Shown here piece by piece: positions 1-55,403 of a DNA stretch of 64,000 nucleotides. The stretch covers positions 507,940-571,939 of the forward strand of contig NZ_VKLU01000005.1 of the NCBI RefSeq assembly GCF_007352635.1. Direction: 5' to 3'. Within the stretch, counting starts at the first letter, position 1. Every line of letters begins with the position of its first letter. The notes under the pieces were generated by a model that worked only from the letters and a program-made list of their open reading frames with translations, ran no database searches and was not told the origin of the DNA. The stretch is from Corallococcus sp. Z5C101001. GTDB taxonomy: Bacteria > Myxococcota > Myxococcia > Myxococcales > Myxococcaceae. A program made the translations under genes and the position numbers.

Positions 1-576
1 ATCCTCCCCGCCCCCGGAGAGCCGGAGGACTCCGGCCCCCACGCCCCGGGGCCGTATCAGGACCTGAGCTATGAAATCTCCACCGAGCTGGCGTCGTTCG
101 GGACGCTCAAGGCCGTCTGGAACTCGGGGACGCCGCAGCCGGACGACCGGGTGGGCCGGCCGTGCTTCGGCGCCTTCGCCCACCGCGACACGCCCTGTCT
201 GGACTGCCCGCTGACGGCGGCGGCGACCACCGCCTGGCCCCACACCATCGTGCGGCACGCGGACGCCGCCAGTGACGGCTACGAGGTCGTCACCGCCACC
301 CCGACCGGGGCCGGCACCGCGCGGATCACCGTGCACACGATTGGCGACGCCACGCTCACCGGCCTCTTCGAGGCGAAGGTGCGCAGGATGGCGCTCACCG
401 CGCGGCTCTCCGAGCGGGAGGGTGATGTCTTGCGTTACCTCGCGCTCGGCCGCTCCTCCACCGACATCGCCGCGGTGTTAGGCATTACCGAACGCACCGT
501 AAAATTCCATCAAGCCAATCTCTTGCGAAAGCTGGGAGCGGAGACGCGGTACGACCTGCTCCGCCTGTTCTTCTGA
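1..576 (+). CDS. LuxR-family (GerE-type HTH) transcriptional regulator, 5'-partial; runs off the left window edge
   Basis: The frame is open from nt 1 with no upstream stop. The C-terminus 'LSEREGDVLRYLALGRSSTDIAAVLGITERTVKFHQANLLRKLG' is a canonical LuxR/GerE helix-turn-helix. Stop codon at 574-576. Confidence 0.7.
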   Translation: MLPAPGEPEDSGPHAPGPYQDLSYEISTELASFGTLKAVWNSGTPQPDDRVGRPCFGAFAHRDTPCLDCPLTAAATTAWPHTIVRHADAASDGYEVVTATPTGAGTARITVHTIGDATLTGLFEAKVRRMALTARLSEREGDVLRYLALGRSSTDIAAVLGITERTVKFHQANLLRKLGAETRYDLLRLFF

Positions 577-714
577 TCAGGCCCCCTTCCCTGGGGGACA
601 GCATTCCCATTCCGAATCGCTTGCGCCATGCTGGCGTCTCGACTCGGGAGTCCTGCGGGTCGGGGGGGCCGTTGCCCATGGGCAGCGCCGGCATACTCCA
701 TCTCAAAGACAGAC

Positions 715-2922
715 ATGGCGCGCGAGCGTTCGCGCGGGGACGCGCCGCCCGTGGCTGAGACTCCGGGCTGGGATGAGGTGATGCGGGAGTTCCTGGTCGA
801 GTCCCGCGAGCACGTGCAGGGCATCGAGGCGACGGTGCTGGAGCTGGAGGCTCAGCCGGGTTCGCAGGCGCTGCTGGCGCAGCTCTTCCGCAGCCTCCAC
901 ACGGTCAAGGGCACCTGCGGCTTCCTGGGCTTCTCCCGCCTGGAGGCGCTGATGCACGCCGCGGAGGAGCTGCTCGGGCTGGCGCGCGACAGGCGCCTCA
1001 CGCTGGACCGGGAGCGCGTCTCCACGCTGCTGGCCATCGCGGACGCGGCGCGAGGGGCGCTGGAGCACATCGAGGCGACGGGGCTGGAGCCCGCGGTGGA
1101 CCACTCCGCGCTGTTCGCCCGGATGGCGGGCGCGACGGCGGCGTCCGCGCCCCTGGCGGCCTCCGAGCCCCTGACGCCACCGGGCACCCTGCCCTGGCGC
1201 GGCGCGGCCACCGGCATGGACTCCAAGCTGCGCGTGGACGTGGCGCTGCTGGACCGGCTGATGAACCTGATGGGCGAGCTGGTGCTGGCGCGCAACCGCA
1301 TCCTCCAGTGCGCCACGTCCCCCGCGCCGGGCGCGGAGCTGGTCACCGCGTCGCAGCGGCTGGACGTCGTCACGACCCAGGTCCAGCAGGTGGTGATGAA
1401 GACGCGGCTGCAGCCCGTGGGGCAGGTGTGGAACCGCTTCCCCCGGCTCGTGCGCGAGCTGGCGAACGGGTGCGGCAAGCAGGTGCGGCTCCAGTTGCAG
1501 GGCGCGGACACGGAGCTGGACAAGACGCTGGTGGAGGCGCTGCATGATCCGCTCACCCACCTGCTGCGCAACGCCGTGGACCACGGCGTGGAGACGCCCG
1601 AGCAGCGCCGCGAGCGCGGCAAGCCGCCCGTGGGGTGCGTGACGCTGCGGGCGTCGCACGAGGGCGGGCTCGTGCACCTGGGGATGTCCGACGACGGCGC
1701 GGGCATCGACGTGCAGCGCGTGCGTCAGGTCGCGGTGCAGCGGGGCCTGTTGACGGCGGAGCAGGCCGCGCGGCTGCCGGACGCGGACGCGCTGATGCTC
1801 ATCTTCATGCCCGGCTTCAGCACCGCCGAGCGCGTGACGTCGCTGTCCGGCCGGGGGGTGGGCATGGACGTGGTGCGCACGCAGGTGGAGCGCATTGGCG
1901 GCACCGTGGAGGTGCACAGCCGGCCCGGCCAGGGCACGACGTTCACCCTGAAGATCCCCCTCACGCTGGCCATCATCCCCGCGCTGCTCGTCACCTGCCG
2001 GGGGGACCGGTACGCGCTGCCACAGGCCAGCCTCCGCGAGGTGGTGTGGTTGGAGCCGGAGCAGGCCCGGCGCGACGTCACCCGCATCCAGGGCGCGTGC
2101 GTGCTCCGGCTCCGGGGGGAGCTGATGCCGTTGGTCGTCCTCGCCTCGGAGCTGGGCGTGGGGCCCGCCATGCCGGACCTGGACGAAGGCGTCACCGTCG
2201 TCGTGTTGCAGGCCGGGGAGCACTCCTTCGGGCTGTGGGTGGACGCCATCCACGACACCGAGGAGATCGTCGTCAAGCCGCTGTGGAAGCACTTGAAGGG
2301 GCTGGCCTGCTACGCGGGCGCGACGGTGCTGGGCGACGGGCGCGTGGCGCTCATCCTGGACGCGATGGGGCTGGGACGCCGCGCGGGCACCCTCGACGAG
2401 ACGCAGGCCCAGGTCGTCATCCCCGAGCCCGTCCCGGAGGTGGCGCCGCGGCCCGAGGCGCCGCGCGAGCGGGTGCTCCTGTGCCGCACCGGCGAGGAGG
2501 GCCGCGTGGCCATCCCGCTGTCGCGCGTGGCGCGGCTGGAGGAGCTGCCCGCCTCGGACGTGGAGCGCTTGAGCGGAGGCATGGAGATGGCGCGCTACCA
2601 CGGCCAGCTCCTCCCGCTGGTGCGCGTGGCCTCCGTGCTGGCGTCTCGACAGGGCGCGACGGAGACGCTCACCCAGGCGCTCCAGGCCGCGGCGGGCGCG
2701 TCCCTGTCCGTCGTCGTCACCTCTCACGCGGAGACGCGCGTGGGGCTGGTGGTGGACGCCATCCTCGACATCGCGGAGGTGGACTTCGCGCTCCAGCGCG
2801 AGACGCGGCGCCCGGGAGTGCTGGGCTCCATGGTGGTGCAGAGCCGGGCCACCGAATTCCTGGACGTGGAGGGCACCGTGCGCGCCGTGCACCCGGAGCT
2901 GCTGACGGGCGGTACGCCATGA
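715..2922 (+). CDS. cheA: CheA-type chemotaxis histidine kinase (Hpt-dimerization-HATPase-CheW-like domains)
   Basis: Hpt motif 'SLHTVKGTCGFLGF', HATPase N-box 'HDPLTHLLRNAVDHGVE', G-boxes 'GRGVGMDVV' and 'GQGTTF', and a C-terminal CheW-like domain. Start chosen at the ATG at 715 (MARERS...); alternatives are 628 or 781. Confidence 0.9.
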   Translation: MARERSRGDAPPVAETPGWDEVMREFLVESREHVQGIEATVLELEAQPGSQALLAQLFRSLHTVKGTCGFLGFSRLEALMHAAEELLGLARDRRLTLDRERVSTLLAIADAARGALEHIEATGLEPAVDHSALFARMAGATAASAPLAASEPLTPPGTLPWRGAATGMDSKLRVDVALLDRLMNLMGELVLARNRILQCATSPAPGAELVTASQRLDVVTTQVQQVVMKTRLQPVGQVWNRFPRLVRELANGCGKQVRLQLQGADTELDKTLVEALHDPLTHLLRNAVDHGVETPEQRRERGKPPVGCVTLRASHEGGLVHLGMSDDGAGIDVQRVRQVAVQRGLLTAEQAARLPDADALMLIFMPGFSTAERVTSLSGRGVGMDVVRTQVERIGGTVEVHSRPGQGTTFTLKIPLTLAIIPALLVTCRGDRYALPQASLREVVWLEPEQARRDVTRIQGACVLRLRGELMPLVVLASELGVGPAMPDLDEGVTVVVLQAGEHSFGLWVDAIHDTEEIVVKPLWKHLKGLACYAGATVLGDGRVALILDAMGLGRRAGTLDETQAQVVIPEPVPEVAPRPEAPRERVLLCRTGEEGRVAIPLSRVARLEELPASDVERLSGGMEMARYHGQLLPLVRVASVLASRQGATETLTQALQAAAGASLSVVVTSHAETRVGLVVDAILDIAEVDFALQRETRRPGVLGSMVVQSRATEFLDVEGTVRAVHPELLTGGTP

Positions 2923-3407
2923 GCGACCCGCGCCAGCTCTGCTCGTTCCTGGTGGGCGAGCACCTGTTCGGCCTGGACATCGAGCGGGTGCAGGAGATCC
3001 TCCTGCCGCCCCCGCTCACGCGCGTCCCTGGCGCCCCGCCGGAGGTGGCGGGCCTGCTCAACCTGCGCGGGCAGATCGTCCCCGCCATCGACCTGCGCCG
3101 CCGCCTGGACCTGCCGGAGGCCACGGCCCCCGCGGACGCGCCCCACGTGGTGCTTCGCGGTGACGACGGCGCGGTGAGCCTGCGCGTGGATGCCATTGGC
3201 GACATCCTCCCCTTCGTCGACGCGAAGCTGGCCCCGGTGCCAGACAACCTGCGCGGGCCCCTGCGCTCGCTGCTGTTGGGCGTCCACGCGCTTCCAGACC
3301 GGCTGTTGTTGGTGTTGTCCGCGGACGCGGTGGTGGACGGGCTGTCGCCCGCGTCCAACCCCGCCGCATCCCCTTCCCTTTCCGCGCTTCCCCAGGAGCC
3401 CCACTGA
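2919..3407 (+). CDS. cheW: CheW coupling protein
   Basis: 162 aa single CheW-like domain. Its ATG overlaps the cheA stop (ATGA at 2919-2922). Only the last 162 codons of track ORF 1635..3407 are credible. Confidence 0.85.
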
Positions 3408-5509
3408 TGGCCCGCACCTCCGCGCCCACCGAGAAGACCAGCCTCTTCCACCGCCTGGGGGGCAAGGCCGCCCTGACGGCCGCCGTGCAGAAGCTCTACG
3501 CGCGCGTGATGACGGACACCCAGCTCACGCCCTACTTCCACCGCACGGACCTGGTCCCGCTGCAGCGCCAGATGGTCACCTACCTCACGCAGCTGCTGGG
3601 CGGGCCCGCGCTCTATCACGGCCGGTCGATGCGTGACGTGCACGCGAGGATGGACCTTCAGCCCCAGCACTTCGAGCGCGTCGCCGAACACCTGGCCCAT
3701 GTCCTGGACGACCTGGACGTGCCGGGCCCCCTCGCCCAGGAGGTCCTGGCGGCGGTGGGCGCGCTGCGGGACGACATCGTGAGCCCGTCCGCGCCCAAGT
3801 CCTCCTCCCCTCCCGCGACGCCTCAGGCTCCGGCGCGCTCGCCCCGGACCGCGGGACGGCGGATCGCCAAGGGCCCCTCCCGCGCGCCGCGCTCCTCCCG
3901 CCGCCGCGCGTCCATGTCCCTGGGGAGCGGCCTGGGCGAAGCGCTGCTGGACGCGGCGCGGGTCAACCTCTTCGTGCTGGACATGGACCTGGGCATCGTC
4001 TTCGCGAACGCGTCCGCCATGGAGGCCATCGAGCGCATCGAAGAGAGCGATGCGTTCCCAAGCCATGGCGCGGACGAAGCGGGCGGCGACTTCCTCTCCC
4101 GCTTCGAACACCAGCTGCGGCGCGAGGAGGGACGGCTGAACACGCCGTCGGCGCTGCCTCACGAGGCCGCCTTCTCCGTGGGCGCGCTCCAGCTCAAGGC
4201 CCGCGTGGACGGCATCCTGGACAAGGCGGGCGCGCTCACCGGCTACGTGGTGAACTGGACGGACGTCACGGAGAAGCAGCGCACGGACACGGAGATGGCG
4301 CGCCTGCGGGCCATGCTGGAGAACGCGCCCACGTGCGTGATGGTGGCGGACGTGGACCTGAGGATCGTCTACCTGAACCCGGCATCGCGCCGGTTGTTGC
4401 AGCGGGTGGAGAAGCACCTGCCGGTGACGGCGGACCGGGTGATCGGCTCGACCATCGACGTCTTCCACCGGGACGCGGCGTACCAGCGGAAGATCCTGGC
4501 CAACGACAAGAACCTGCCGGTGCGCGCGAACATCCCCATCGGGCCGGAGATCGCGGACCTGCTGGTGACGGCGGTGTACGACGGCCAGGGCCGCTACCTG
4601 GGGCCCATGGTGACCTGGGAGCTCATCACCGAGAAGCTCGCCGTGCAGCAGCGGGAGAAGGAGCTGGACACCACCCTGCGCGGCATCTTCCAGGAGGTGA
4701 CGCAGCACTCGCAGACGCTCGCGGCGTCGTCCCAGGAGCTGTCCAGCGTCAGCCAGCAGATGGTGAGCAACGCGCAGGAGACCGCGGCGCAGGCCACCCA
4801 GGTGTCCGCGGGCGCCGAGCAGGTCAGCCGCAACGTGCAGCGCGTCGCGTCCGGCATGGAGGAGGTCAACGCGAACATCCGGGAGGTGGCGCGCAACGCG
4901 AGCACCGCGGCCCGGGTGGCGTCCTCCGCCGTCAAGCTGGCGGACGGCACGTCCGTCGTCGTGGGCAAGCTGGGGACGAGCAGCCAGGAGATTGGCAAGG
5001 TCATCAAGGTCATCACCTCCATCGCGCAGCAGACCAACCTGCTGGCGCTCAACGCGACCATCGAGGCGGCGCGCGCGGGCGAGGCGGGTCGGGGCTTCGC
5101 GGTGGTGGCCAACGAGGTGAAGGAGCTGGCGCGCGAGACGGCCCGGGCCACGGAGGACATCGGGCTGAAGATTGGCAGCATCCAGGGGGACACCGAGGAG
5201 GTGGTCAACGCCATCCTGGAGATTGGCGCCACCATCGGCCGGATCAACGAGTTGCAGACCTCCATCGCGTCGTCCGTGGAGGAGCAGACGGCCACCGCGG
5301 GGGAGATCCTCCGCAACGTGGGAGAGGCGGCCAAGGGCAGCCAACAGATCTCCGAGAACATGGCCGCCGTGGCGGAGGCCGCGCGCAGCACCACCGAGGG
5401 CGCGGGCAGCACGCAGCGCTCGGCGGTGGAGCTGGCCCACATGGCGCAGTCACTGCAACGGCTGGTCATCCAGGTGGACACCACGGACAAGCAGAACCGG
5501 TCGAAGTAG
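3407..5509 (+). CDS. Cytoplasmic methyl-accepting chemotaxis protein: N-terminal truncated hemoglobin (2/2 Hb) domain + two PAS-like domains + MCP signalling domain
   Basis: N-terminus '[37 protein letters not shown]...[34 protein letters not shown]' matches the group-I truncated hemoglobin pattern (GG pairs, proximal His). Pro/Ser linker follows. PAS-like segments '[25 protein letters not shown]' and '[22 protein letters not shown]'. MCP signalling domain '[33 protein letters not shown]'. No transmembrane segment. The start overlaps the cheW stop (TGATG). Confidence 0.85.
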
Positions 5510-5539: not shown

Positions 5540-7063
5540 GTGAGAACCGGACTGATGCGATGGTGGGAGCTGGGCCGCGTCGCCCAGGCCTCCAAACGCC
5601 TGCGGCGCGCGTCCCGACCCCAGGACGTGGAGCCCGCGCGGCACGAGCTCGCCGAGCGATTGCTCGGGCTGCGCGGGCTGCCCCAGAAGGTGGGGCAGGT
5701 GCTCACGCTCTCCGAGCTGGGCACGGACACCCCGGGGTTCGGTTCGCTCGCGGAGGCGCCCTCCCCGCTCGCGCCCGAGGCCGCGCTGGAGGAGATCTCC
5801 CGCCGGCTGGGCAGGCCGTGGCGGGAGGTGTTCGCGACACTGGAGGGCGTGGGCATCACCGCGTCGCTGGGGCAGGTGCACCGGGGCGTGCTGCGGGACG
5901 GGCGTGCCGTGGCGGTGAAGCTGCGGCACCCGGGCATCGTGGACGCCGTGCGGGATGATCTGCGCGCGCTGGGGTGGCTGGCGGCGCCGCTGGGCGGCTG
6001 GCGCGGGAAGCTGGACCTGTCCGCCTACCGTCGCGAGCTGGCGGAGATGCTCCAGCGCGAGCTGGACTACCACCTTGAGGCCCAGGCCCTGCGGGACGCG
6101 AACGCGCGCCTGTCGGAGGTGCCGGGCGTCACCTCCCCGGTGCCGGTGGACGCGCTCGTGCGCGAGGACCTGCTGGTGATGAGCTGGGTGGAAGGCCAGC
6201 CGCTGGCGGAGGCCCGGCGCTGGAGCGACGCGGACCGCCGCGCGCTGGCCACGACGCTGGTGCGGCTGTTCCTCCACGGCTGCTTCACGTGGGGCGTGCT
6301 GCACGCGGATCCACACCCGGGCAACTACCGCGTGTCACGAGGCCCGGACGGACGGCCCGTGCTGGGGGTGCTCGACTTCGGCTGCGTGAAGCCGATTCAA
6401 CCCGAGCTGCCCCTGGGGCTGGGCCGGTTGATCGCGCTCCTCCGGGGACCCGCGCCGGAGGCCGACCATTTGCTATCCGCGTGGGTCACGCTGGGCTTCG
6501 CGCCAGAGCTGCTGGAGCCCATGGCGGAGGCGCTGCCCGCCATCAGCCAGGTGCTCCTGGAGCCCTTCCTCCAGGACCGCCCCTTCGAGGTCAGGAGCTG
6601 GCGGTTGGGGGCGCGGATCTCCGAAGCCCTGGGGCCCCACCGGTGGAACTTCCGAGCGGCAGGTTCCGCCTCGCACCTCTACGTCCTGCGCGCGTTCCAT
6701 GGGCTGGTGCGCCACCTGGAGGTGCTGGACGCGCCGCTCGCCTGGGGCCCCCTGCTGGACGAGGCGCGCGCCCCCTCGCTGCCGCCTCCGCTTCCACCGC
6801 CCGCTTCGCACCTCGAGGGGGCGGCCAGGTACCTGCGGGTGCGGGTGACGCAAGGGTGCCTCACGCGCGTGGCGCTGACCTTCCGCGCGGATGTGACGGC
6901 GCACCTGGAAGAGCTGTTGCCGGACGACCTGGCGCGAAGGCTCGCGGCGCGGGGCCTGGATCCAGCGGCCATCGGCGCGGCGGCGGTGGCCTCGGGGCTG
7001 CGGCCTTCGGAGCTGTTCCACCTGGACGAGGGCGACCGGCAAGTCCGGGTCTGGCTCGAGTGA
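5540..7063 (+). CDS. ABC1/UbiB-family atypical protein kinase (ADCK-like)
   Basis: Motifs 'LPQKVGQVLT' and 'GITASLGQVHRG...AVKLRHPG' are typical of ABC1/AarF kinases. GTG start at 5540; an ATG at 5555 is also possible. Confidence 0.75.
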   Translation: MRTGLMRWWELGRVAQASKRLRRASRPQDVEPARHELAERLLGLRGLPQKVGQVLTLSELGTDTPGFGSLAEAPSPLAPEAALEEISRRLGRPWREVFATLEGVGITASLGQVHRGVLRDGRAVAVKLRHPGIVDAVRDDLRALGWLAAPLGGWRGKLDLSAYRRELAEMLQRELDYHLEAQALRDANARLSEVPGVTSPVPVDALVREDLLVMSWVEGQPLAEARRWSDADRRALATTLVRLFLHGCFTWGVLHADPHPGNYRVSRGPDGRPVLGVLDFGCVKPIQPELPLGLGRLIALLRGPAPEADHLLSAWVTLGFAPELLEPMAEALPAISQVLLEPFLQDRPFEVRSWRLGARISEALGPHRWNFRAAGSASHLYVLRAFHGLVRHLEVLDAPLAWGPLLDEARAPSLPPPLPPPASHLEGAARYLRVRVTQGCLTRVALTFRADVTAHLEELLPDDLARRLAARGLDPAAIGAAAVASGLRPSELFHLDEGDRQVRVWLE

Positions 7064-7085
7064 ACGACGGACAAGGAGGTGGCGG

Positions 7086-7424
7086 ATGGTCACCATCGGC
7101 ATGAACTACGAAGTGCGAGAGGGCAAGGCGGAGGCCTTCGAGCGGAAGTTCGCGCTCGTGTTGGAGGCCATGCGAGCGCTGCCCGAGCACGCCAGGACGG
7201 AGCTGTTCCGGAGCGTGGAGGCTCCGGGCCGCTATCTCATCGTCTCCGAGTGGCACACCCGCGAGGGCTTCGACGCCTTCGTCACCTCGGAGGCCTTCCA
7301 CCGGGTGACGGACTGGGGCGCCAGCGCCATCCTCGCGAGCCGGCCCCGGCACGAGGTGTACGGCAACGCGGCCTCCAGTTCCCCCGCCGGGGGCCGCTGC
7401 CCGGTCGCGCACGCGGCCCGGTGA
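7086..7424 (+). CDS. Antibiotic-biosynthesis-monooxygenase (ABM)-like small protein
   Basis: 112 aa with a ferredoxin-like ABM pattern (EVREGKAEAFERKF...SEWHTREGFDAFVTSEAF). Strong RBS AAGGAGGTG at about 7071-7079. Confidence 0.65.
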   Translation: MVTIGMNYEVREGKAEAFERKFALVLEAMRALPEHARTELFRSVEAPGRYLIVSEWHTREGFDAFVTSEAFHRVTDWGASAILASRPRHEVYGNAASSSPAGGRCPVAHAAR

Positions 7425-7435
7425 AGAGGGGGCCC

Positions 7436-8500
7436 ATGAACGCCATCCGGGTCCTGGTGGTGGACGACGCGGCCGTGGTGCGGCGGCAGGTGTCCCTGCT
7501 GCTGGACGCGGATCCGGGCCTGGAGGTCGTCGCCACCGCGCCCAACGGCCGCATCGCGCTGACGAAGGTGGAGCAGTTCCAGCCGGACGTGGTGCTGCTG
7601 GACCTGGAGATGCCGGACCTGGACGGGCTGGAGACGCTCAAGCTGCTGCGACAGCGCGCGCCAGAGCTGCCGGTGGTGATGTTCAGCGCGCTCACCGAAC
7701 GCGCGGGCGTCCTCACCCTGGAGGCGCTCGCGCTGGGGGCGCGTGACTACGTGACGAAGCCCACCTCCGCCGGGGGCCTGCACGTCACCGTGGAGGCGGT
7801 GCGGGAAGAGCTGGTGCGCAAGCTCAAGGCGCTCCATGTGCGCGCGTCCCCCGCGCCCCCCGCGCAGGCCTCCGTCCCACGCGCGCCCCGGGCCCGCGCA
7901 CACGCGCCCTCGCGCGTGGAGGCCATCGTCATCGGCGCGTCCACCGGGGGCCCCGGCGCGCTGGTGCGCGTGGTGTCCGCGCTGCCCGCGGATCTGCCGG
8001 TGCCGGTGCTCATCGTGCAGCACATGCCGCCCCTCTTCACCCGGCTGCTCGCGGAGCGCCTGGAGGCCGCGAGCTCGCTGCGCGTGCGCGAGGCGGTGTC
8101 CGGAGCGTTCGTCCAGCCTGGCGCGGTGTGGGTCGCGCCGGGGGACTTCCACCTGGCCGTCCGCCGGGATGCGGCGGGAGTGCGGCTGCACACGCATCAG
8201 GGGCCCGCGGAGAACGCCTGCCGTCCGGCGGTGGACCTGCTCTTCCGCTCCGCGGCGGACGTGTACGGCCCGGGCGTGCTGGCGGTGGTGCTCACCGGCA
8301 TGGGGCAGGACGGCCTGCGCGGATGCCGCCGGGTGAGCGAGTCGGGCGGTCAGGTGGTGGTGCAGGACCAGGCCAGCTGCGTCATCGGCAGCATGCCGGG
8401 CGTGGTGGAGCAGGCGGGGCTCGCGGACGCCGTGGTGCCGCTGGACACCCTGGCCACGGAGTTGGTGCGGCGCGTGGAAGCACGCGGAAAGAGGACGTAG
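7436..8500 (+). CDS. cheB: CheB protein-glutamate methylesterase (receiver + methylesterase)
   Basis: Receiver 'IRVLVVDDAAVVRR...VVLLDLEMPDLDGLE...MFSAL' and esterase 'IVIGASTGGPGAL...LIVQHMPPLFT...GMGQDG'. The real start is internal to track ORF 7079..8500. Confidence 0.9.
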   Translation: MNAIRVLVVDDAAVVRRQVSLLLDADPGLEVVATAPNGRIALTKVEQFQPDVVLLDLEMPDLDGLETLKLLRQRAPELPVVMFSALTERAGVLTLEALALGARDYVTKPTSAGGLHVTVEAVREELVRKLKALHVRASPAPPAQASVPRAPRARAHAPSRVEAIVIGASTGGPGALVRVVSALPADLPVPVLIVQHMPPLFTRLLAERLEAASSLRVREAVSGAFVQPGAVWVAPGDFHLAVRRDAAGVRLHTHQGPAENACRPAVDLLFRSAADVYGPGVLAVVLTGMGQDGLRGCRRVSESGGQVVVQDQASCVIGSMPGVVEQAGLADAVVPLDTLATELVRRVEARGKRT

Positions 8501-8502
8501 TC

Positions 8503-9387
8503 ATGCCCCTGCTTCCCGAGGACTTCTCCTACCTGCGCCAGCGCGTGCTGCGAAGGTCCGGGTTGGTGCTGGAGTCCGACACGCACGCGCTGGTGGAGAC
8601 GCGGCTCACGCCGCTCATGCGCGAGGAGCGACTCCCCGACATCACCACCCTGGTGGCGCGGCTGCGCTCGCAGCCCGAGGGCAGCGCGCTCCACCAGCGG
8701 CTGGCCGAGGCCCTGGCCAACCACGAGACGGCCTTCTTCCGGGACGCGCCGGTGTTCGACGCCCTGCGCTCCACGGTGCTGCCCGCCCTGCTGGCCCGGC
8801 GCGGCCGGACGCGGACGCTGCGCATCTGGTGCGCGGCGTGCGCCTACGGGCAGGAGCCCTACAGCGTGGCGATGACGCTGGCGGAGGCGGGGCTGCTCAT
8901 CACCGGCTGGACGGTGCGCATCCTCGCGACCGACTTCTCCCTCCGCGCCCTCAGCCGCGCCAGCGAGGCCCGCTATGAAGCCCAGGAGCTCCACCGCGGC
9001 GTGACGCCCGTCCTGCGCCAGCGCTACTTCCACCAGGAGCGCGACGGGTGGCGGCTGAACGAACAGGTGCGCAAGCCGGTGGAGTTCCGCCCGCTCAACC
9101 TGATGGAGGACTTCCCACTGGAGGCGCCCGTGGACCTCGTGCTGCTTCGCAACGTGATGATCTACTGGGACGTACCCACGCGGCGCGCGGTGCTCGCCCG
9201 CGTGCGGCGGATGCTGCACGCCGACGGCTACCTGGTGCTGGGCGCCGCGGAGGCCGCGCCCCTGGTGGAGGACGGCTTCACGCGGCACCTCATCGGGCAG
9301 ACGAGCTGGTACCGCCCCGCGCCCCTCTCCACCGGCGCGCCCGTGGAGCACGGCTCGCGCACGCCCCACTCCAACGCTACACCTTGA
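8503..9387 (+). CDS. cheR: CheR protein-glutamate O-methyltransferase
   Basis: 'ETAFFRDAPVFDAL...RIWCAACAYGQEPYSVAMTL...LLRNVMIYWD' is the CheR SAM-methyltransferase signature. The start is 3 nt after the cheB stop. Confidence 0.9.
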   Translation: MPLLPEDFSYLRQRVLRRSGLVLESDTHALVETRLTPLMREERLPDITTLVARLRSQPEGSALHQRLAEALANHETAFFRDAPVFDALRSTVLPALLARRGRTRTLRIWCAACAYGQEPYSVAMTLAEAGLLITGWTVRILATDFSLRALSRASEARYEAQELHRGVTPVLRQRYFHQERDGWRLNEQVRKPVEFRPLNLMEDFPLEAPVDLVLLRNVMIYWDVPTRRAVLARVRRMLHADGYLVLGAAEAAPLVEDGFTRHLIGQTSWYRPAPLSTGAPVEHGSRTPHSNATP

Positions 9388-17947: not shown

Positions 17948-20632
17948 TCAGTGGGTGCGGAGGAAGTCCCGGATGCTCGACAGGTGGAGCTTCTGGGATT
18001 CGGCGCACAACTGGATGGACTCCAGGGCCCGGGCCAGGGCGCGTGGACCGCCTTCGATCTTCTCCACGCGGGGCTTGAGGAACGCCTCCACCTGGGCCCG
18101 CTGCGTCTCATCACAGAGATTTCCCAGACGGCCAATCAGCCCGCCCATCTCGTCCGAGCGCAGTCGCTGCGCCAGCTCATCGAAGTGCGCCTGATAGAAG
18201 CTCAAGGCCCGCGACTGCGACTCCGGGATGACCAGCGCCATCTTGAGGATGATCTCGGAGTCCCTGACGTCGAAGTCCGACCCCATGACGAGCGCCAGCG
18301 CCCGCTCCACCAGCTCCGGGGCGCGGAAGAAGGCCAGGGCCGTCAACAGCCGCGTGCGCTCGTTGCGGTCCTGTTCCTTCTTCGCGGCCGCCAGCAGCGC
18401 GTCGAACAACGCCGCGTCCCCGTGCGCCGCCGCCCAGGGCAACGCATTCGACAGCGCCTCGGGATCCACTGACTTGCGGTCCGCCAGCCACGCACGGACC
18501 AGCGGCGCGGCCTCCTTCGCCAGCTTGGGATCATCGCCGAGCCCCGCCGCCAGCGCGAGCAACAGCGAGCGCGACTGCGTCATCGCGTCATCGTCTCCGG
18601 CCTTGGGCATCCAGCCGAGCGCGCGCGCGCGCGGCGCATAGAGCGACGCCACCCAGGCCCGGAAGCGCTGCCGCTCCTCCACGGTGAGCTGATCCTCACG
18701 CACCCGGTGAAGCAACGCGGCGCCCCCCTGCACCACCAGGCGATCCGCCGACCGGGCGGTGGCGGGCACCGCGCTCAAGGCCTGCCCCAGTGGCAGGATC
18801 CCCCGAGTCACCGCCGCGTCCACGTCCGCCCAGAGCGCCACCTGCTCCCCCACCGTGAAGGCGGTGGCCGGCGTCGAGAGCAGCTTCGTCAATTGCTCCC
18901 GCGTGTAGCCGCCCCGGTAGTAGCCCGTGCCGCCCGCGTTGAGCAGCACCCACGCCGGGCACTGCTTCAAAGGCAGGGACACCTCCGCCGTCCGCCCCTC
19001 CATCATCGAGCACACGCGGGACGACTGCGCGCCGGTTCCCGCGCGAAGGCACACAGGCACGAGCCATTCCTGCTGGGAGCTCGCCTGCGATCCCACCGGC
19101 AGGTAGCGCTCCTGCGACAGCTTCACCGTCGGCGTGCCTCCCTTGGGGCATGACACCTGCGCGGACACGCTCGCCGCGCCGCCCTGCTCGATGAAACCGC
19201 CAAAGGACCGCGCCACCTCCGGTCCCGCCGCCTGGGACAGGTCCGCGAGGAAGTCCTCCATCGTCGCGACGCCCCAGGCGTGCTTGCGGACATACCCGCG
19301 CAGCGCCTCGCGGAAGCGCTCCGGACCCAGCCACGCCTCGAACATGGCGATGACGGACGAGCCCTTGTCATACGTCGTCCCGTTGTCGAAGGAGCCGACG
19401 ATGTCGCTGTTGCTCGTCACCGGCTTGCGCACCGGCAGCGCGGCCTCCAGCGCGTCCGACTCCAGCGCGTTGCGGGTCGCGGACATGGCGCGCTCCTGCT
19501 GGAAGTTCCAGGAAGGCTCCAGCCGGTCCACCGTCTGCCGGTCCAGCCACGCGGTGAAGGACTCGTTCAGCCAGATGTCGTTCCACCACGCGCAGGTGAC
19601 GACGTCGCCGAACCAATAGTGGCCCAGCTCATGGTTGGCGATGACGGCGTAGGACTTGCGCCGGGCCAGCGTCTCCTCGCCAGGCGGGATGAGCGTGAGC
19701 GGCTGTCCGAGCGCGACGATGCCCGGGTGCTCCATGGTGCCCCAGTAGCGGGGCACCACCGCCACATCCAGCTTCTCGTACGGATAGGTCTGATCGAAGA
19801 AGTCCTCCAGGCCCTTCACGATGCGCGGCGTGATGCTCGCGGCGTACCGCGTCTCCGCGCCCCGGCCCTTCGGCACGACGAAGCGCAGCGGCACGCTCGC
19901 GCGCCCCACCGTGCCCGCCTCCACCACGTCGAACGGCCCCACCATGAAGGCCACGAGGTAGCTGGGCATGGGCTTGCTCTCCGCGAACGTGACCCGCTCC
20001 AGCCCGTCCGTCAGCGGCTCGCGAGACACGACGGGATGGTTGGCCACCGCCACGTGCCCCGCCTTCACCGTGAAGCGCAGGCGCCACGGCACCTTGAAGG
20101 TCGGCTCGTCGAAGCACGGGAACGCGCGGCGCGCGTCGATGGGCTCGAAGAACGTGTAGAGGTAGGGCTCGCCCCCTTCCGCCTGGCCGTAGATGCCCTG
20201 GCTGCGCTCGCGGTCCACCTTGCCGGTGAAGTCGATCACGAGCCGCGCCCGGCCCGCCGGCAACGCCTCCGGCAACAGCAAGCCCAGGCGCCCCTCGTCC
20301 GCTGTCACCGGCTTCGCCTCCAAGGTGCGGTCGCCCACCACGACCCGGGCTCGCGTCACCTCCAGGTCCTGCGCGTGCAGCCACACCTGGCGCACCGGCT
20401 CACGGACCTCCACGTCGATGGTGACGCTGCCCGGATAGGTGTCCTCCGAAGGCACCAGCTTCAGATCCAACGCGTAGTGCACGGGCCGCACGGTGTCCGG
20501 CAGACGCAGCGCGGGGGGAAGGGCCTCCGGCCACGCGACGGCGGGAGGCGCGGAGGCGGACGGCGCGGCCTCCGGTGCGTGGGCACAGCGGACGGTCAAA
20601 GCCAACAGGACGAGCAGAGGGAGCAGACGCAT
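17948..20632 (-). CDS. Secreted M1-family aminopeptidase (aminopeptidase N-like)
   Basis: Signal peptide MRLLPLLVLLALTVRCAHA. 'GTMEHPG', 'HELGHYWFG' and 'WLNESFTAW' are the GAMEN/HExxH...E signatures of M1 peptidases. 894 aa. Confidence 0.9.
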   Translation of the reverse strand: MRLLPLLVLLALTVRCAHAPEAAPSASAPPAVAWPEALPPALRLPDTVRPVHYALDLKLVPSEDTYPGSVTIDVEVREPVRQVWLHAQDLEVTRARVVVGDRTLEAKPVTADEGRLGLLLPEALPAGRARLVIDFTGKVDRERSQGIYGQAEGGEPYLYTFFEPIDARRAFPCFDEPTFKVPWRLRFTVKAGHVAVANHPVVSREPLTDGLERVTFAESKPMPSYLVAFMVGPFDVVEAGTVGRASVPLRFVVPKGRGAETRYAASITPRIVKGLEDFFDQTYPYEKLDVAVVPRYWGTMEHPGIVALGQPLTLIPPGEETLARRKSYAVIANHELGHYWFGDVVTCAWWNDIWLNESFTAWLDRQTVDRLEPSWNFQQERAMSATRNALESDALEAALPVRKPVTSNSDIVGSFDNGTTYDKGSSVIAMFEAWLGPERFREALRGYVRKHAWGVATMEDFLADLSQAAGPEVARSFGGFIEQGGAASVSAQVSCPKGGTPTVKLSQERYLPVGSQASSQQEWLVPVCLRAGTGAQSSRVCSMMEGRTAEVSLPLKQCPAWVLLNAGGTGYYRGGYTREQLTKLLSTPATAFTVGEQVALWADVDAAVTRGILPLGQALSAVPATARSADRLVVQGGAALLHRVREDQLTVEERQRFRAWVASLYAPRARALGWMPKAGDDDAMTQSRSLLLALAAGLGDDPKLAKEAAPLVRAWLADRKSVDPEALSNALPWAAAHGDAALFDALLAAAKKEQDRNERTRLLTALAFFRAPELVERALALVMGSDFDVRDSEIILKMALVIPESQSRALSFYQAHFDELAQRLRSDEMGGLIGRLGNLCDETQRAQVEAFLKPRVEKIEGGPRALARALESIQLCAESQKLHLSSIRDFLRTH

Positions 20633-25234: not shown

Positions 25235-26851
25235 CTACGCGTTGCGACGCACCATCGCGACCTCGTAGCGGCGGTCCGTCACGTAGCCGTTCGCGGCCTG
25301 GCCGGGGCGGTACATCTTCCCGCTCTGGTCATCCACGTAGAAGCGGTTGTTGGGATTGGTGTCCTTGCCCTTGCTGGCGTTGGACGTGCCCGGGTCGTGG
25401 AACGTGTAGTAGGTGCGGCCCTTGTCGTCGACGCCACGGCCCGTGATGGTCACGAAGTGGTCCGTGAGGCCATCCGCGTTGTAGTTCGCGTCCTTGTGGC
25501 TGACCCCCACCACCACCGGCTTGCCCGCGTCCAGCTGCCGGTCGATGTAGTCGCGGCCCTCCTTGGCCTTCTTCGAGTCCACCGTGAGCTGGCCGGTGCT
25601 GTTCTCGCTCTTGCCCACCTGGATGCGGTTCTCCGGTCCCGTCACCTTCGCGCCCGACGCGCCCGCCATCGCCGTCGCGGCCTTGAAGCACGCCGTGTCG
25701 CTCGCGGTGTAGCCGTGGCCGTTCTCGAACTGGCTGTAGTACGGCACCTTCACGTGGACCGAGGGGCCGGACTTCGACGGGGCCACCTGCTGCGTGTCCG
25801 TGCGGTCCGCCTCCGTGGTGGGCCGCGAGGTCGTGGTGCCGCCCGTCTTGTTCGGAGGGACGATGCCCGTGTTGCCCGGCGTCGCCGCGCCGCCCGTCTT
25901 GTTCGGAGGGACGATGCCCGTGTTGCCCGGCGTCGCGGTGGCGCCCGCCTTCTCCTTCTTGAGCATCGCGAGCGCGTCCTTGGCCTCTGACTTGAAGCGG
26001 TTGGCCACGCCCTTCTGCACGTCCCGGGAGTTGCCGGAGAAGTGCACCAGGGTGCCGCTGGCGTTCGTGCGGCCGCGCTCGGCGTAGATGTCCTTGATGA
26101 GCTGCTCGTCGCTCACCTTGGCGGGGTCGCGCCCGGCCAGCGCCTTCTTGAAGATGTCATCCGCCGCGCCCGGGCCGTGCTGCACCGACGTGGACCAGGC
26201 CACGTCGCGCAGCGCCGCGGACCGCTTGTCCAGGTCGATGCCTGTCGCCTTCTTGATGTTCGCGGCGCCCACGTCGTAGTGCGTGGCCTTGATGTAGTCG
26301 TGCTGGGCCTTGTCGAAGCCCTTCGGGTCCTTCGCCGCCAGCTGCTTCCACGCCGTGGAGAACGCCGGCGTGCCCGGCTTGCTGCCTGACAGCGCCTTGT
26401 AGAAGTCCGGGTTCGACTTCTTCAGCGAGTTCACGAACGACTGCGCCGAGCCGTTCGCCGAGGCGAACTGGTAGGAGCCGTAGGACACGCCGCCCCGGTC
26501 CCCCTTGCCCGTGGAGACGGTGCCGGGACCGCGCGCCTCGTACTTGCGGCTCAGCCCGCCCAGCTCCCCATCCGCCGTACGGGTGGAGGGCGTCGCCGTG
26601 GAGGTGGCCGGCGCCTTCGTGCCCCCGGTGGACTGCGCGAAGCTGTCGCCCTGCGCCTTGCCCCCCGCGTTCGAACCGCGCGGGCCCTTCGTGTCGAAGC
26701 CGTCCTTCAGCTGGAGCGTCTGGCCCGCGAGGATCCGGTTCGGATCCTTGATGTTGTTCGCCTTGGCCAGCGCGTCCACCGACGTGTTGTAGCGCCTGGC
26801 GATCTCGGAAAGGGTGTCACCGGAACGCACGCGAATGCTGGAGACGGTCAT
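25235..26851 (-). CDS. LysM-domain protein with central domain of uncertain identity and C-terminal C39-like (papain-fold) peptidase domain; contains a perfect 17-aa tandem duplication
   Basis: N-terminal LysM 'VRSGDTLSEIARRYNTSVDALAKANNIKDPNRILAGQTLQL'. Tandem 'TPGNTGIVPPNKTGGA' x2. C-terminal 'VPYYSQFENGHGYTASDTACFKAATAM...DHFVTITG' resembles Peptidase_C39-like Cys/His. No signal peptide at the chosen start; the track ORF extends to 26944. Confidence 0.65.
   Translation of the reverse strand: MTVSSIRVRSGDTLSEIARRYNTSVDALAKANNIKDPNRILAGQTLQLKDGFDTKGPRGSNAGGKAQGDSFAQSTGGTKAPATSTATPSTRTADGELGGLSRKYEARGPGTVSTGKGDRGGVSYGSYQFASANGSAQSFVNSLKKSNPDFYKALSGSKPGTPAFSTAWKQLAAKDPKGFDKAQHDYIKATHYDVGAANIKKATGIDLDKRSAALRDVAWSTSVQHGPGAADDIFKKALAGRDPAKVSDEQLIKDIYAERGRTNASGTLVHFSGNSRDVQKGVANRFKSEAKDALAMLKKEKAGATATPGNTGIVPPNKTGGAATPGNTGIVPPNKTGGTTTSRPTTEADRTDTQQVAPSKSGPSVHVKVPYYSQFENGHGYTASDTACFKAATAMAGASGAKVTGPENRIQVGKSENSTGQLTVDSKKAKEGRDYIDRQLDAGKPVVVGVSHKDANYNADGLTDHFVTITGRGVDDKGRTYYTFHDPGTSNASKGKDTNPNNRFYVDDQSGKMYRPGQAANGYVTDRRYEVAMVRRNA
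25841..25942 (-). repeat. Perfect 2 x 51-nt direct tandem repeat inside the LysM/C39 gene
   Basis: The unit 'gcccgtcttgttcggagggacgatgcccgtgttgcccggcgtcgc' occurs twice back to back and encodes ATPGNTGIVPPNKTGG(A) x2. Confidence 0.8.
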
Positions 26852-27042
26852 GGAAAGCCCTCTCATGTCCGCCCGCGAACAGACACATCGCGGACGCGAT
26901 TGGATTTCCACGATTATCGAAAGGCAATGCGCGCGGTTTCGCATTGATAGTCACAATCAAGCAAAGCATGTTATTCCAGCCGCTTCAGTTTCCACGGATC
27001 AATACGACGTCATCAAAGGACATGCCCAGGAGGTCCAATCAG

Positions 27043-36254: not shown

Positions 36255-36290
36255 CCGTCAGCCAGGGCCCACCCGCATGCGAGGTGAACC

Positions 36291-38471: not shown

Positions 38472-38483
38472 CCCGCCTCCCCC

Positions 38484-38526
38484 CGCCCGTCTTCGGCCCC
38501 TGGGCGCTGGAGACGGGCGTTTCTTC
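38484..38526 (+). terminator. Rho-independent terminator after the prolyl oligopeptidase gene
   Basis: 9-bp GC stem 'cgcccgtct ... agacgggcg' followed by 'tttcttctcc'. Confidence 0.55.
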
Positions 38527-38555
38527 TCCCGCGTTTCGTGGCACCCTGGCGCCCC

Positions 38556-38990
38556 ATGAGCCCCCTCATCCCCTACTTCATCCTCTCGCCCGTGGTCGCC
38601 GGAGGCCTGGCCTGGTGGACGCTCACCCGCCTGGGCCGCAAGCGCAACGAGCGCGCGAAGGGCTCGCTGGACGCGGTGGTGACGCGGCTGCGCGGACAGA
38701 AGGCGGCCGGCACGGTGGACCTGTTCGTCCAGGACGTGTCGTGGTCCGGGGAGACGGAGCTGTCGCCGCAGAACTGCCGCGTCCGCGTCGTGATGGGCGG
38801 CCGGGACGCGGCGGGCATCCCGGCGCGCTTCGAGGTGGAGAGCGCCCCGGGAGCCCCCCGCCCGCCCACGGACGTGCTCGCGGCGCTGCGCGTGCTGGAT
38901 GCTCAGGCGATGGAGGCCCTGAAGTCCGGCGGCTGGAAGTGGCAGCGGCCCACGATTGGCTTCGAGCCAGCGGCGTCGCAAGTCCAGTGA
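38556..38990 (+). CDS. Hypothetical membrane-anchored protein
   Basis: 'MSPLIPYFILSPVVAGGLAWWTLT' is a transmembrane helix. No recognised domain. A GTG start at 38538 is also possible. Confidence 0.45.
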   Translation: MSPLIPYFILSPVVAGGLAWWTLTRLGRKRNERAKGSLDAVVTRLRGQKAAGTVDLFVQDVSWSGETELSPQNCRVRVVMGGRDAAGIPARFEVESAPGAPRPPTDVLAALRVLDAQAMEALKSGGWKWQRPTIGFEPAASQVQ

Positions 38991-39033
38991 CCGGGAAGCG
39001 GTCTCGGCGCACGGAGGGTCCGCGACGGGCTTG

Positions 39034-39056
39034 AGCCCCCGACGGTCACGGGGGCT
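39034..39056 (+). terminator. Candidate terminator hairpin (no U-tract)
   Basis: Inverted repeat 'agcccccg acggtca cgggggct' just after the stop at 38990. Confidence 0.3.
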
Positions 39057-39120
39057 GACCGGCGTCGTTCGCCACACTGGCGGGGGATTCCTGTGACGGG
39101 GTGACGCAACGGGTGCCAGC

Positions 39121-52700: not shown

Positions 52701-55403
<2,703 letters not shown>

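What the first reader, a model, noticed from the sequence alone, without database searches (positions are those of the whole stretch)
3407..5509. Chemoreceptor with a truncated-hemoglobin (2/2 Hb) sensor domain fused to PAS domains and an MCP signalling module
Classical heme-based aerotaxis receptors (HemAT type) use the sensor-globin fold. This cytoplasmic MCP instead starts with a clear group-I truncated hemoglobin: 'F..LGG', the 'GGP..Y.G..M...H' region with the proximal His, and an 'HF' E/F-helix pattern. After a Pro/Ser linker come two PAS-like domains and the methyl-accepting domain. This implies O2/NO/CO sensing feeding a dedicated CheA-CheW-CheB-CheR pathway, a domain combination that is rarely if ever described.
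Basis: partly seen in the sequence, partly recalled or inferred. Interest (0 to 1): 0.6.

Follow-up and report, generated by a model that had tools for sequence, protein, structure and literature searches.

The report
Truncated-hemoglobin/heme-PAS chemoreceptor of Corallococcus
The gene really encodes a soluble chemoreceptor that begins with a group I truncated hemoglobin followed by two Aer2-type PAS domains, but its close ortholog in Corallococcus coralloides was already described in silico in 2018 as a putative oxygen-sensing receptor, so this is a confirmed, still untested, known case.

Summary
Observation confirmed. Window 3407-5509 (+) encodes a 700-aa cytoplasmic MCP. Residues 10-126 are a group I (N) truncated hemoglobin: Pfam Bac_globin E=1.5e-20, and the AF2 model superposes on M. 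tuberculosis HbN at 1.1-1.3 Å. It has Tyr B10, Phe CD1 and the proximal His79. A disordered Ser/Pro/Arg linker (127-174) follows, then two PAS domains and an HAMP-less signalling hairpin.

- Both PAS domains are of the Aer2 heme-binding class.
- PAS2 keeps the heme-ligand His354, the Hβ-Leu and the Iβ-Trp404.
- PAS1 has Glu at the heme-His position in all 29 Corallococcus sequences examined.

This is not new. The protein is 82% identical to Cc_4972 (WP_014397685.1). Sharma, Parales & Singer (BMC Genomics 2018) described Cc_4972 and its Cc-5 cluster as a putative aerotaxis system, and a 2026 review still calls it an in silico prediction.

The fusion is much commoner than that paper found: at least 37 of the 80 best loci among GTDB species genomes, across several phyla. 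ABC1 recurs next to it outside Corallococcus.

Most likely PAS2-heme drives the kinase-control module and the tethered globin is an accessory gas input.

The parts
628..2922 (+). cheA (Hpt, dimerisation, HATPase_c, CheW-like domains)
   Evidence: Pfam. The stop overlaps the cheW start (ATGA).
2919..3407 (+). cheW (162 aa)
   Evidence: Pfam CheW E=2.3e-29. The stop TGA 3405-3407 overlaps the mcp ATG.
3407..5509 (+). Whole receptor gene: trHb-linker-PAS1-PAS2-MCP, 700 aa. Identical to WP_143901171.1 (Corallococcus).
3434..3784 (+). Group I (N) truncated hemoglobin domain, aa 10-126. Tyr31 = B10, Phe44 = CD1, Leu52 = E7, Met56 = E11, His79 = F8.
   Evidence: Pfam PF01152 E=1.5e-20. PDB sequence hits to group 1 trHbs, 3e-19 to 2e-18. 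AF2 pLDDT 88. Foldseek TM 0.82-0.85, rmsd 1.1-1.3 Å to 1S56/1IDR/1DLW/3AQ5. Invariant residues in A1.
3785..3928 (+). Disordered Ser/Pro/Arg/Ala-rich tether, aa 127-174
   Evidence: Composition. pLDDT 29-33 in the full-length model. In Corallococcus the gap between the globin and PAS1 matches is about 33-54 aa; in other members the globin-PAS gap is as short as about 17 aa.
3929..4267 (+). PAS1, aa 175-287. Aer2-class PAS with Glu234 at the heme-ligand (Eη-His) position. Iβ-Trp284 and the DxT motif (D286-V-T288) are kept.
   Evidence: Profile A2 vs 3VOL E=1.1e-19. Alignments. FE[H/Q] in 29/29 Corallococcus sequences.
4322..4630 (+). PAS2, aa 306-408. Aer2-class heme-PAS with Eη-His354, Hβ-Leu385 and Iβ-Trp404; the DxT motif is reduced to L-I-T408.
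   Evidence: phmmer vs 3VOL 2.2e-15, 4HI4 4e-14, 6CEQ 1.4e-12. H354 and W404 invariant in 28 sequences. Alignment.
4631..5482 (+). Kinase-control (methyl-accepting) coiled-coil hairpin, aa 409-692. Tip at E559. About 20 heptads per arm. No HAMP and no C-terminal pentapeptide.
   Evidence: MCPsignal E=7e-32. Arm lengths 150/141 aa. Continuous helices 409-556 and 558-692. No HAMP hit even at E<=1.
5540..7063 (+). ABC1/UbiB-type atypical kinase gene
   Evidence: Pfam ABC1 E=8.8e-44. 47% and 42% identical to the ABC1 genes that follow trHb-MCPs in L004 and L001.
7086..7424 (+). ABM (antibiotic-biosynthesis-monooxygenase fold) gene, 112 aa
   Evidence: Pfam ABM E=2.4e-15. 60% identical to the ABM of L004.
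7436..8500 (+). cheB (REC + methylesterase)
   Evidence: Pfam. ATG at 7436.
8503..9387 (+). cheR
   Evidence: Pfam. ATG at 8503, 3 nt after the cheB stop. A convergent YegS/DAGK gene at 9377-10297 (-) ends the operon.

Best explanation
The gene is the ortholog of C. coralloides Cc_4972. It encodes a soluble methyl-accepting chemoreceptor whose sensor module combines two different heme-domain types.

Shown:
- An N-terminal group I truncated hemoglobin with an intact heme pocket (His79 F8, Tyr31 B10, Phe44 CD1).
- A ~48-residue disordered tether.
- PAS1, an Aer2-class PAS that has lost the canonical heme-ligand His (Glu234).
- A helical connector.
- PAS2, an Aer2-class PAS that keeps His354, Leu385 and Trp404.
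- PAS2 runs directly, with no HAMP, into the ~20-heptad-per-arm signalling hairpin.

Inferred:
- Both the globin and PAS2 bind heme b and diatomic gases.
- PAS2 is the proximate signal generator. As in Aer2, O2 binding displaces the Hβ-Leu and rotates the Iβ-Trp, and the change passes through the C-terminal PAS strand into the coiled coil to control CheA.
- PAS1 is a heme-less relay or dimerisation module.
- The tethered globin is an accessory input. It could dock onto the PAS module in a ligand-dependent way, or act chemically nearby (O2 buffering, or NO dioxygenation as in HbN) to tune what PAS2 sees.
- CheR and CheB adapt the receptor.
- With no CheY in the cluster, the output is probably not classical motor control and remains unknown.
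For: Domain identities.

Residue conservation:
- Globin G18, G19, Y31, F44, G65, P67, M75 and H79 are invariant in 23 diverse family members.
- PAS2 H354 and W404 are invariant in 28 sequences, with or without a globin.
- At the PAS1 heme-His position, Glu occurs only in Corallococcus.

Architecture: linker pLDDT ~30; continuous helix from PAS2 into the hairpin; no HAMP.

Family logic:
- The PAS2-type domain next to the MCP module is present in every member examined.
- The globin is optional: about 41 of the 120 listed proteins carry it, and at least 37 of the 80 best GTDB loci.
- The globin is sometimes duplicated (P0015 has 2, P0199 has 4).
- It is always joined by a linker of variable length; the linkers read directly (window, P0054, P0058) are low-complexity.

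Precedent: in tri-PAS VvAer2, the PAS next to the output signals downstream, while upstream PAS-heme domains modulate or are dispensable (PMC10107281).

Orthology to the published Cc_4972 and its Cc-5 cluster.
Against: - There is no experimental heme or ligand-binding data for any member. The 2026 review still calls it an in silico prediction.
- PAS2 lacks the Asp of the DxT coupling motif (L-I-T). There is also no HAMP, so the Aer2 transmission mechanism cannot be transferred unchanged.
- The globin E11 residue is Met in Corallococcus (Leu in P0009) where non-Corallococcus relatives mostly have Gln, so its ligand chemistry may be unusual.
- The globin's strict conservation across the Corallococcus species examined, and across several phyla, argues that it is functionally important and not a mere appendage.
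- The AF2 monomer model says nothing about globin-PAS contacts.
Confidence: 0.55

Rival explanations
1. One reading: the truncated hemoglobin is the primary O2/NO/CO sensor. The PAS domains only relay its conformational change to the MCP module, making a 'truncated-globin-coupled sensor' analogous to HemAT.
For: The heme pocket is intact and strongly conserved. The globin is retained in all Corallococcus species examined and in at least 29 other species-level genomes. PAS1 has lost its heme His in Corallococcus, where the globin is present, which could mean the globin took over an upstream heme input.
Against: The globin is connected by a 17-54 aa linker of variable length. The window's linker is predicted disordered (pLDDT ~30), and the linkers read directly are low-complexity, so there is no rigid path for a conformational signal. 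Close relatives work without any globin, for example Hyalangium rubrum, with 62% identity in the PAS-MCP part. PAS2 itself keeps every Aer2 heme and O2 residue except the Asp of the DxT coupling motif.
Confidence: 0.25
2. The globin is not a sensor but a tethered enzyme or ligand buffer, for example an NO dioxygenase like M. tuberculosis HbN, or an O2 store. Placed at the chemosensory array, it would act together with the ABC1 and ABM proteins on respiratory or quinone status, and the PAS domains would do all the sensing.
For: The best structural and sequence matches are NO-detoxifying HbN-type trHbs. The tether is flexible. ABC1 genes are enriched next to globin-bearing receptors: 6 of 27 lineages against 1 of 34, Fisher p=0.025. 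ABC1+ABM follow the trHb-MCP in Corallococcus, P0015, L004 and L015.
Against: Most globin-bearing loci (21 of 27) have no ABC1. No reductase partner for NOD turnover is encoded in the cluster. Corallococcus has Met instead of Gln at E11, which weakens the HbN-like distal network. The association statistic is not phylogenetically corrected.
Confidence: 0.15
3. The globin-like domain is a degenerate, heme-free remnant, and the receptor senses something other than gases through its PAS domains.
For: None positive. It is only that heme binding has never been measured.
Against: The proximal His, Tyr B10, Phe CD1 and both Gly-Gly hinges are invariant across 23 diverse sequences at 34-68% identity. 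The model is confident (pLDDT 88) and superposes on holo-trHbN structures at about 1.2 Å.
Confidence: 0.03

Closest known systems
Cc_4972 / WP_014397685.1 and the Cc-5 'aerotaxis' chemosensory cluster of Corallococcus coralloides DSM 2259 (Sharma, Parales & Singer 2018, PMC6194562)
   Same: 82% identical, the same 700-aa length, and the same Bac_globin+PAS+MCPsignal architecture. [quoted passage not shown]
   Different: It comes from a different Corallococcus species or strain (WP_143901171.1). The paper's text, searched for these terms, never mentions 'truncated', a globin group or Aer2. From what was read of it, it also does not note two PAS domains, PAS1 degeneracy or the absence of HAMP. 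It reported the cluster as unique among myxobacteria and found no ABC1/ABM in other clusters. Both statements are now outdated.
Aer2 soluble PAS-heme O2 receptors (P. aeruginosa PA0176; V. cholerae and V. vulnificus Aer2)
   Same: The PAS class is the same, with the Eη-His heme ligand, Hβ-Leu and Iβ-Trp (PAS2). Both are multi-PAS soluble MCPs in a dedicated che cluster that is probably not devoted to flagellar control.
   Different: - No HAMP domains and no C-terminal pentapeptide.
- Scores 212 bits against the 1200-bit cut-off of the Vibrio Aer2 equivalog model.
- The hairpin is about 20 heptads per arm.
- It has an N-terminal truncated hemoglobin.
- PAS1 lacks the heme His.
HemAT and other globin-coupled sensors (sensor-globin / protoglobin fold, PF11563)
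   Same: An N-terminal heme globin is fused to an MCP signalling domain, and both are presumed gas-responsive.
   Different: The globin here is 2-on-2 group I, not the 3-on-3 sensor globin. There is no Protoglobin hit for the window protein. It is separated from the output by a disordered tether plus two PAS domains, not by a direct helical link.
Single-domain group I truncated hemoglobins (M. tuberculosis HbN, Tetrahymena, Paramecium and Chlamydomonas trHbs)
   Same: 31-36% identity, with the same fold and key residues: Tyr B10, Leu E7 as in HbN, Phe CD1, His F8.
   Different: Here the domain is fused to a signalling protein. E11 is Met in Corallococcus, not Gln. A 2020 review listed bacterial chimeric T globins only for groups O and P (PMC7475203).

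Membership tests
Group I (N) truncated hemoglobin | Significant match to the bacterial-like (2/2) globin profile over the whole domain | tested here: met
   PF01152 E=1.5e-20, 74 bits against a cut-off of 21, profile positions 1-119 of 121.
Group I (N) truncated hemoglobin | 2-on-2 helical fold, closer to group I than to group II/III structures | tested here: met
   AF2 pLDDT 88. The top 28 Foldseek PDB hits are all group I-type trHbs (HbN, Paramecium, Tetrahymena, Chlamydomonas, Shewanella): TM 0.74-0.85 overall and rmsd 1.1-1.3 Å for the best ones. Group II hits have E-values about 3 orders of magnitude worse. The sequence search gives the same order.
Group I (N) truncated hemoglobin | Proximal His F8, Tyr B10, Phe CD1 and the Gly-Gly hinge motifs | tested here: met
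   His79, Tyr31, Phe44, G18-G19 and G65-G66-P67, from the gapless alignment to 3AQ5. All but G66 (>=90% conserved) are invariant in A1.
Group I (N) truncated hemoglobin | Gln at E11 forming the distal H-bond network with Tyr B10 (HbN type) | tested here: not met
   Met56 in the window protein; Met in the other Corallococcus sequences except P0009 (Leu). Most non-Corallococcus members of the fusion family have Gln. This is a variable position, not an exclusion criterion.
Group I (N) truncated hemoglobin | Binds heme b and diatomic ligands | not testable with these tools
   Needs protein purification and UV-vis spectra.
Aer2-class PAS-heme domain (PAS2, aa 306-408) | Eη-His heme ligand, Hβ-Leu and Iβ-Trp (features as defined in PMC10107281) | tested here: met
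   His354 (IDVFH), Leu385 and Trp404 align to PaAer2 H234, L264 and W283. H354 and W404 are invariant in 28 sequences.
Aer2-class PAS-heme domain (PAS2, aa 306-408) | [quoted passage not shown] | tested here: not met
   W404-E-L-I-T408: the Thr is kept and the Asp is replaced by Leu.
Aer2-class PAS-heme domain (PAS1, aa 175-287) | Eη-His heme ligand | tested here: not met
   Glu234 follows the invariant R-F. All non-Corallococcus PAS1-type domains have His there. 29 of 29 Corallococcus sequences have FE[H/Q]. The homology itself is clear: profile vs 3VOL E=1.1e-19, with Iβ-Trp284 and DxT present.
Aer2 receptor (NCBIfam NF041847 equivalog; PAS flanked by poly-HAMP; C-terminal pentapeptide) | Equivalog score, HAMP domains, pentapeptide | tested here: not met
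   212 bits against a cut-off of 1200, covering the PAS region only. No HAMP at E<=1, and an uninterrupted helix from PAS2 into the hairpin. The C-terminus is ...DKQNRSK.
Globin-coupled sensor (HemAT type) | Sensor-globin / protoglobin 3-on-3 fold | tested here: not met
   No PF11563 hit for the window protein. The fold search returns only 2/2 globins among the 50 hits listed.
Methyl-accepting chemotaxis protein | MCPsignal domain with a conserved hairpin tip and antiparallel coiled coil; cognate CheA/CheW/CheB/CheR | tested here: met
   PF00015 E=7e-32. Tip sequence [19 protein letters not shown] at 553-571. Helices 409-556 and 558-692. Translationally coupled che genes.
Cc-5 chemosensory cluster (Sharma 2018) | Gene order CheA-CheW-MCP(Bac_globin+PAS)-ABC1-ABM-CheB-CheR with no CheY | tested here: met
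   against the paper's description. The MCP is 82% identical to the 90%-identity cluster that contains WP_014397685.1.

The most novel reading that the evidence does not exclude
The truncated hemoglobin may be a true signalling input, which would make this family the first 'truncated-globin-coupled sensors'. The receptor would then use two chemically different hemes, trHbN and Aer2-type PAS, to discriminate or integrate O2 against NO/CO. In the lineages that carry the ABC1/UbiB (± ABM) genes, including Corallococcus, it would link gas sensing to quinone or respiratory status. In Corallococcus, where the cluster has no CheY, this would run through a non-motility output.
Probability: 0.25. Interest if true: 0.6.

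Novelty: already known. Interest (0 to 1): 0.35.

Why it matters
All characterised heme-based chemoreceptors use either a sensor globin (HemAT) or a PAS-heme domain (Aer2). A 2/2 hemoglobin wired into a chemosensory pathway would be a third input type, and here it sits in the same polypeptide as an Aer2-type PAS-heme domain.

The idea has been in print since 2018 but has never been tested. What this analysis adds makes the published hypothesis more precise and directly testable:
- the group I assignment of the globin;
- the Aer2-class PAS domains, with PAS1 lacking the heme His;
- the disordered tether and the absence of HAMP;
- presence in at least 37 species-level genomes across several phyla;
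- recurrent ABC1 linkage.

It does not make the finding new.

Tried and rejected
- **Globin-only homolog search.** A word-index search with the globin domain alone returned nothing. That search was wasted and says nothing about distribution.
- **Genome scan with the globin alignment.** It was replaced by the sensor-module alignment A4.
- **ABC1 linkage overstated at first.** The first small sample suggested ABC1 follows nearly all globin-bearing receptors (6 of 8 against 0 of 3). The larger GTDB sample reduced this to 6 of 27 against 1 of 34 lineages. The link is recurrent and enriched, not obligatory.
- **Upstream LuxR-type gene as the missing response regulator.** The gene ending at 576 has no REC domain. 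Its N-terminal part is Cys-rich with no Pfam match, and the ORF runs off the window edge. Rejected.
- **Hidden HAMP between PAS2 and the hairpin.** None at E<=1, and the model shows a continuous helix.
- **ABM protein as an IsdG-like heme oxygenase.** Considered from its N/W/H pattern, but these residues are general to ABM folds. Not pursued.
- **Chemosensory class (F-type) and exact heptad class.** Not assigned, because no class-specific models were available. 'About 20 heptads per arm' rests only on arm lengths.
Full report
**What is there.** The window is ~70% G+C. The ORF at 3407-5509 (+) encodes a 700-aa protein. It is identical to WP_143901171.1, annotated 'MULTISPECIES: methyl-accepting chemotaxis protein [Corallococcus]'. 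Pfam finds Bac_globin (PF01152, aa 12-124, E=1.5e-20), PAS (aa ~298-355) and MCPsignal (aa 497-658, E=7e-32).

**The globin.**
- A sequence search of the PDB with aa 1-134 returns group 1 truncated hemoglobins as all the strongest matches: Tetrahymena 3AQ5 3e-19, Chlamydomonas THB1, M. tuberculosis HbN 2e-18. Group II/O proteins score five or more orders of magnitude worse than most group I hits.
- The gapless alignment to 3AQ5 places Tyr31 at B10, Leu52 at E7, Met56 at E11 and His79 at F8.
- An AlphaFold2 model built on 23 family sequences (pLDDT 88) superposes on HbN, Paramecium and Tetrahymena trHbs with TM 0.82-0.85 and rmsd 1.1-1.3 Å over ~115 residues.
- In that family alignment G18, G19, Y31, F44, G65, P67, M75 and H79 are invariant.
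- One lineage-specific oddity: E11 is Met in the window protein and other Corallococcus sequences (Leu in P0009), where most non-Corallococcus fusion proteins have the HbN-like Gln.

**The PAS domains are not generic.**
- NCBIfam matched aa 180-419 to the PAS region of the Vibrio Aer2 model.
- aa ~296-420 matches the crystal-structure sequences of the Aer2 heme-PAS domains: P. aeruginosa 3VOL 2e-15 and 4HI4 4e-14, V. cholerae 6CEQ 1e-12.
- The features that define Aer2 PAS-heme domains are the Eη-His heme ligand, the Hβ-Leu, the Iβ-Trp and a C-terminal DxT motif (PMC10107281).
- PAS2 has His354 (IDVFH), Leu385 and Trp404. Only the Asp of DxT is missing.
- PAS1 is 28% identical to PAS2. A profile of PAS1-type domains hits 3VOL at 1e-19.
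- In the column where every non-Corallococcus PAS1 has the heme His (…RFH…), all 29 Corallococcus sequences examined have Glu (FEH or FEQ). The adjacent His is itself not conserved.
- PAS1 keeps Trp284 and DxT.
- So the receptor most likely carries two hemes of different type, one in the globin and one in PAS2, plus a heme-less PAS1.

**Architecture.**
- The full-length AF2 model gives a confident globin, then aa 127-174 at pLDDT ~30.
- That stretch is the Ser/Pro/Arg/Ala-rich linker. It varies in length even within the genus.
- PAS1 follows, then a connecting helix (288-305), then PAS2.
- From PAS2 an uninterrupted helix 409-556 turns at E559 into helix 558-692.
- There is no HAMP (Pfam at E<=1). 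Some relatives do have one between the last PAS and the hairpin (P0058).
- The arms are ~150 and 141 residues, about 20 heptads each.
- There is no C-terminal pentapeptide.

**Genomic context.**
- The genes are translationally coupled: cheA 628-2922, cheW 2919-3407, mcp 3407-5509, ABC1 5540-7063, ABM 7086-7424, cheB 7436-8500, cheR 8503-9387.
- A convergent lipid-kinase gene closes the operon.
- No CheY is encoded.

**Prior art.**
- A full-text search for 'Bac_globin' plus 'MCPsignal' returned one paper: Sharma, Parales & Singer, BMC Genomics 2018 (PMC6194562).
- It describes Cc_4972 (WP_014397685.1) of C. coralloides DSM 2259. [quoted passage not shown] The authors propose it as an oxygen-sensing, aerotaxis system acquired by horizontal transfer.
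- WP_014397685.1 lies in the 90% cluster of P0004, which is 82% identical to the window protein and has the same length.
- A July 2026 review of aerotaxis still cites this receptor as an in silico prediction.
- The finding is therefore already known, and experimentally untested.

**What goes beyond the paper.**
- Searched for these terms, the paper's text contains no mention of 'truncated' (so no trHb group) and none of Aer2; it cites the Aer-2 paper only in passing. In what was read of it, PAS1 degeneracy and the missing HAMP are not noted either.
- It found 7 such proteins in 8,075 complete genomes, and only one myxobacterium.
- In the present databases, all Corallococcus species examined have the gene.
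- About 41 of the 120 listed homolog clusters carry the globin.
- A scan of GTDB species genomes gave 286 relatives. At least 37 of the best 80 loci carry the globin. They come from Myxococcota (Corallococcus, Polyangiaceae), Planctomycetota, Acidobacteriota, Nitrospirota, Thermodesulfobacteriota and Elusimicrobia.
- Some relatives have two or four tandem trHb domains in front of the PAS-MCP part (P0015, P0199).
- Hyalangium rubrum, another myxobacterium, has the closest globin-less cluster: CheA 61%, CheW 64%, MCP 62%, CheB and CheR 58-59% identity. It has two CheY genes and no ABC1/ABM.
- Contrary to the paper's statement that no other cluster contains ABC1/ABM, ABC1 directly follows the trHb-MCP in P0059 and L001. 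In P0063 it follows after one intervening unannotated gene. ABC1+ABM follow it in P0015, L004 and L015. In the GTDB set, ABC1 also follows it in L023, L024, L032 and L058.
- Over lineages, ABC1 is present in 6 of 27 globin-bearing loci against 1 of 34 globin-less loci (one-sided Fisher p=0.025; not corrected for phylogeny).
- Most relatives have a CheY between the receptor (or ABM) and CheB. All eight Corallococcus/Myxococcaceae loci lack it.

**Mechanism.**
- The PAS2-type domain, with its invariant His and Trp, is the one element always adjacent to the signalling hairpin.
- The globin is optional, sometimes duplicated, and always attached by a variable linker, which is predicted disordered in the window protein.
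- In VvAer2 the output-proximal PAS signals, while upstream heme-PAS domains modulate or are dispensable.
- I therefore favour PAS2-heme as the proximate signal generator, PAS1 as a heme-less relay, and the globin as an accessory input. That input could be ligand-dependent docking or local O2/NO chemistry.
A tethered-enzyme role is also possible (about 0.15). A heme-free remnant is very unlikely.
- All heme- and ligand-binding steps are inferred.

**Verdict.** The novelty class is 'already known': an ortholog in the same genus has been published with the same reading. Interest is moderate to low (0.35), because the hypothesis is still untested and is now sharper.

Noticed in passing
window 4100-4108 (Phe233-Glu234-His235 of PAS1): In all 29 Corallococcus sequences examined, the Aer2-type heme-ligand His of PAS1 is replaced by Glu (FEH in 23, FEQ in 6). 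Every non-Corallococcus PAS1-type domain examined keeps RFH. This suggests lineage-specific loss of one heme site.
   Followed up: yes
window 3572-3574 (Met56, globin position E11): Distal-pocket position E11 is Met in the window protein and other Corallococcus sequences (Leu in P0009), but Gln in most non-Corallococcus members of the trHb-PAS-MCP family. It could change O2/NO affinity or even allow His/Met hexacoordination.
   Followed up: partly
window 5540-7424; L001 9943-11451; L004 5405-7397; L015, L023, L024, L032, L058: An ABC1/UbiB-type kinase gene (± an ABM gene) follows the trHb-MCP in several unrelated lineages: 6 of 27 globin-bearing against 1 of 34 globin-less lineages, p=0.025. 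This contradicts the 2018 paper's statement that no other cluster has them. Function unknown.
   Followed up: partly
L002 (Hyalangium rubrum JAXIVS010000001.1) 6000-13103: A second myxobacterial genus carries the closest cluster: cheY-cheA-cheW-mcp-cheY-cheB-cheR, 58-64% identity. Its MCP has no globin but begins with a Pro/Ala/Arg-rich tail like the Corallococcus linker, and its PAS1 keeps the heme His. It has no ABC1/ABM.
   Followed up: partly
window 7424-7436, and L007-L014: The single-domain CheY that sits between the receptor/ABM and cheB in most related clusters is absent from all Corallococcus/Myxococcaceae loci. The pathway's output is therefore unclear.
   Followed up: partly
proteins P0141-P0251: The best-scoring representatives for this trHb profile are multi-unit proteins with 2 to 14 tandem truncated-hemoglobin domains (for example P0141, 1882 aa, 14 units). 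P0199 has four trHb units fused to PAS-MCP, and P0015 has two.
   Followed up: no
window 1-576 (+): A LuxR/GerE-type HTH gene lies directly upstream of cheA. Its reading frame is open to the window's left edge. Its N-terminal part is Cys-rich (C..CLDCP) with no Pfam match. It is not a REC domain, unlike the REC-GerE regulators next to related clusters (L001, P0015).
   Followed up: partly
window 9377-11131: Downstream neighbours are a convergent YegS/DAGK-type lipid kinase (9377-10297, -) and a Fic-domain protein (10415-11131, +).
   Followed up: no
window 17948-57679: The rest of the window looks like ordinary chromosome: an M1 aminopeptidase (17948-20632 -), a LysM + VgrG3-C-like muramidase (25235-26944 -), DNA polymerase I (52701-55403 -) and a double-FHA protein (55463-57679 -). 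Long ORFs at 29759-33964 (+, 1401 aa) and 36258-39131 (-, 957 aa) have no Pfam match. In this high-GC DNA they were not checked for being real genes.
   Followed up: no
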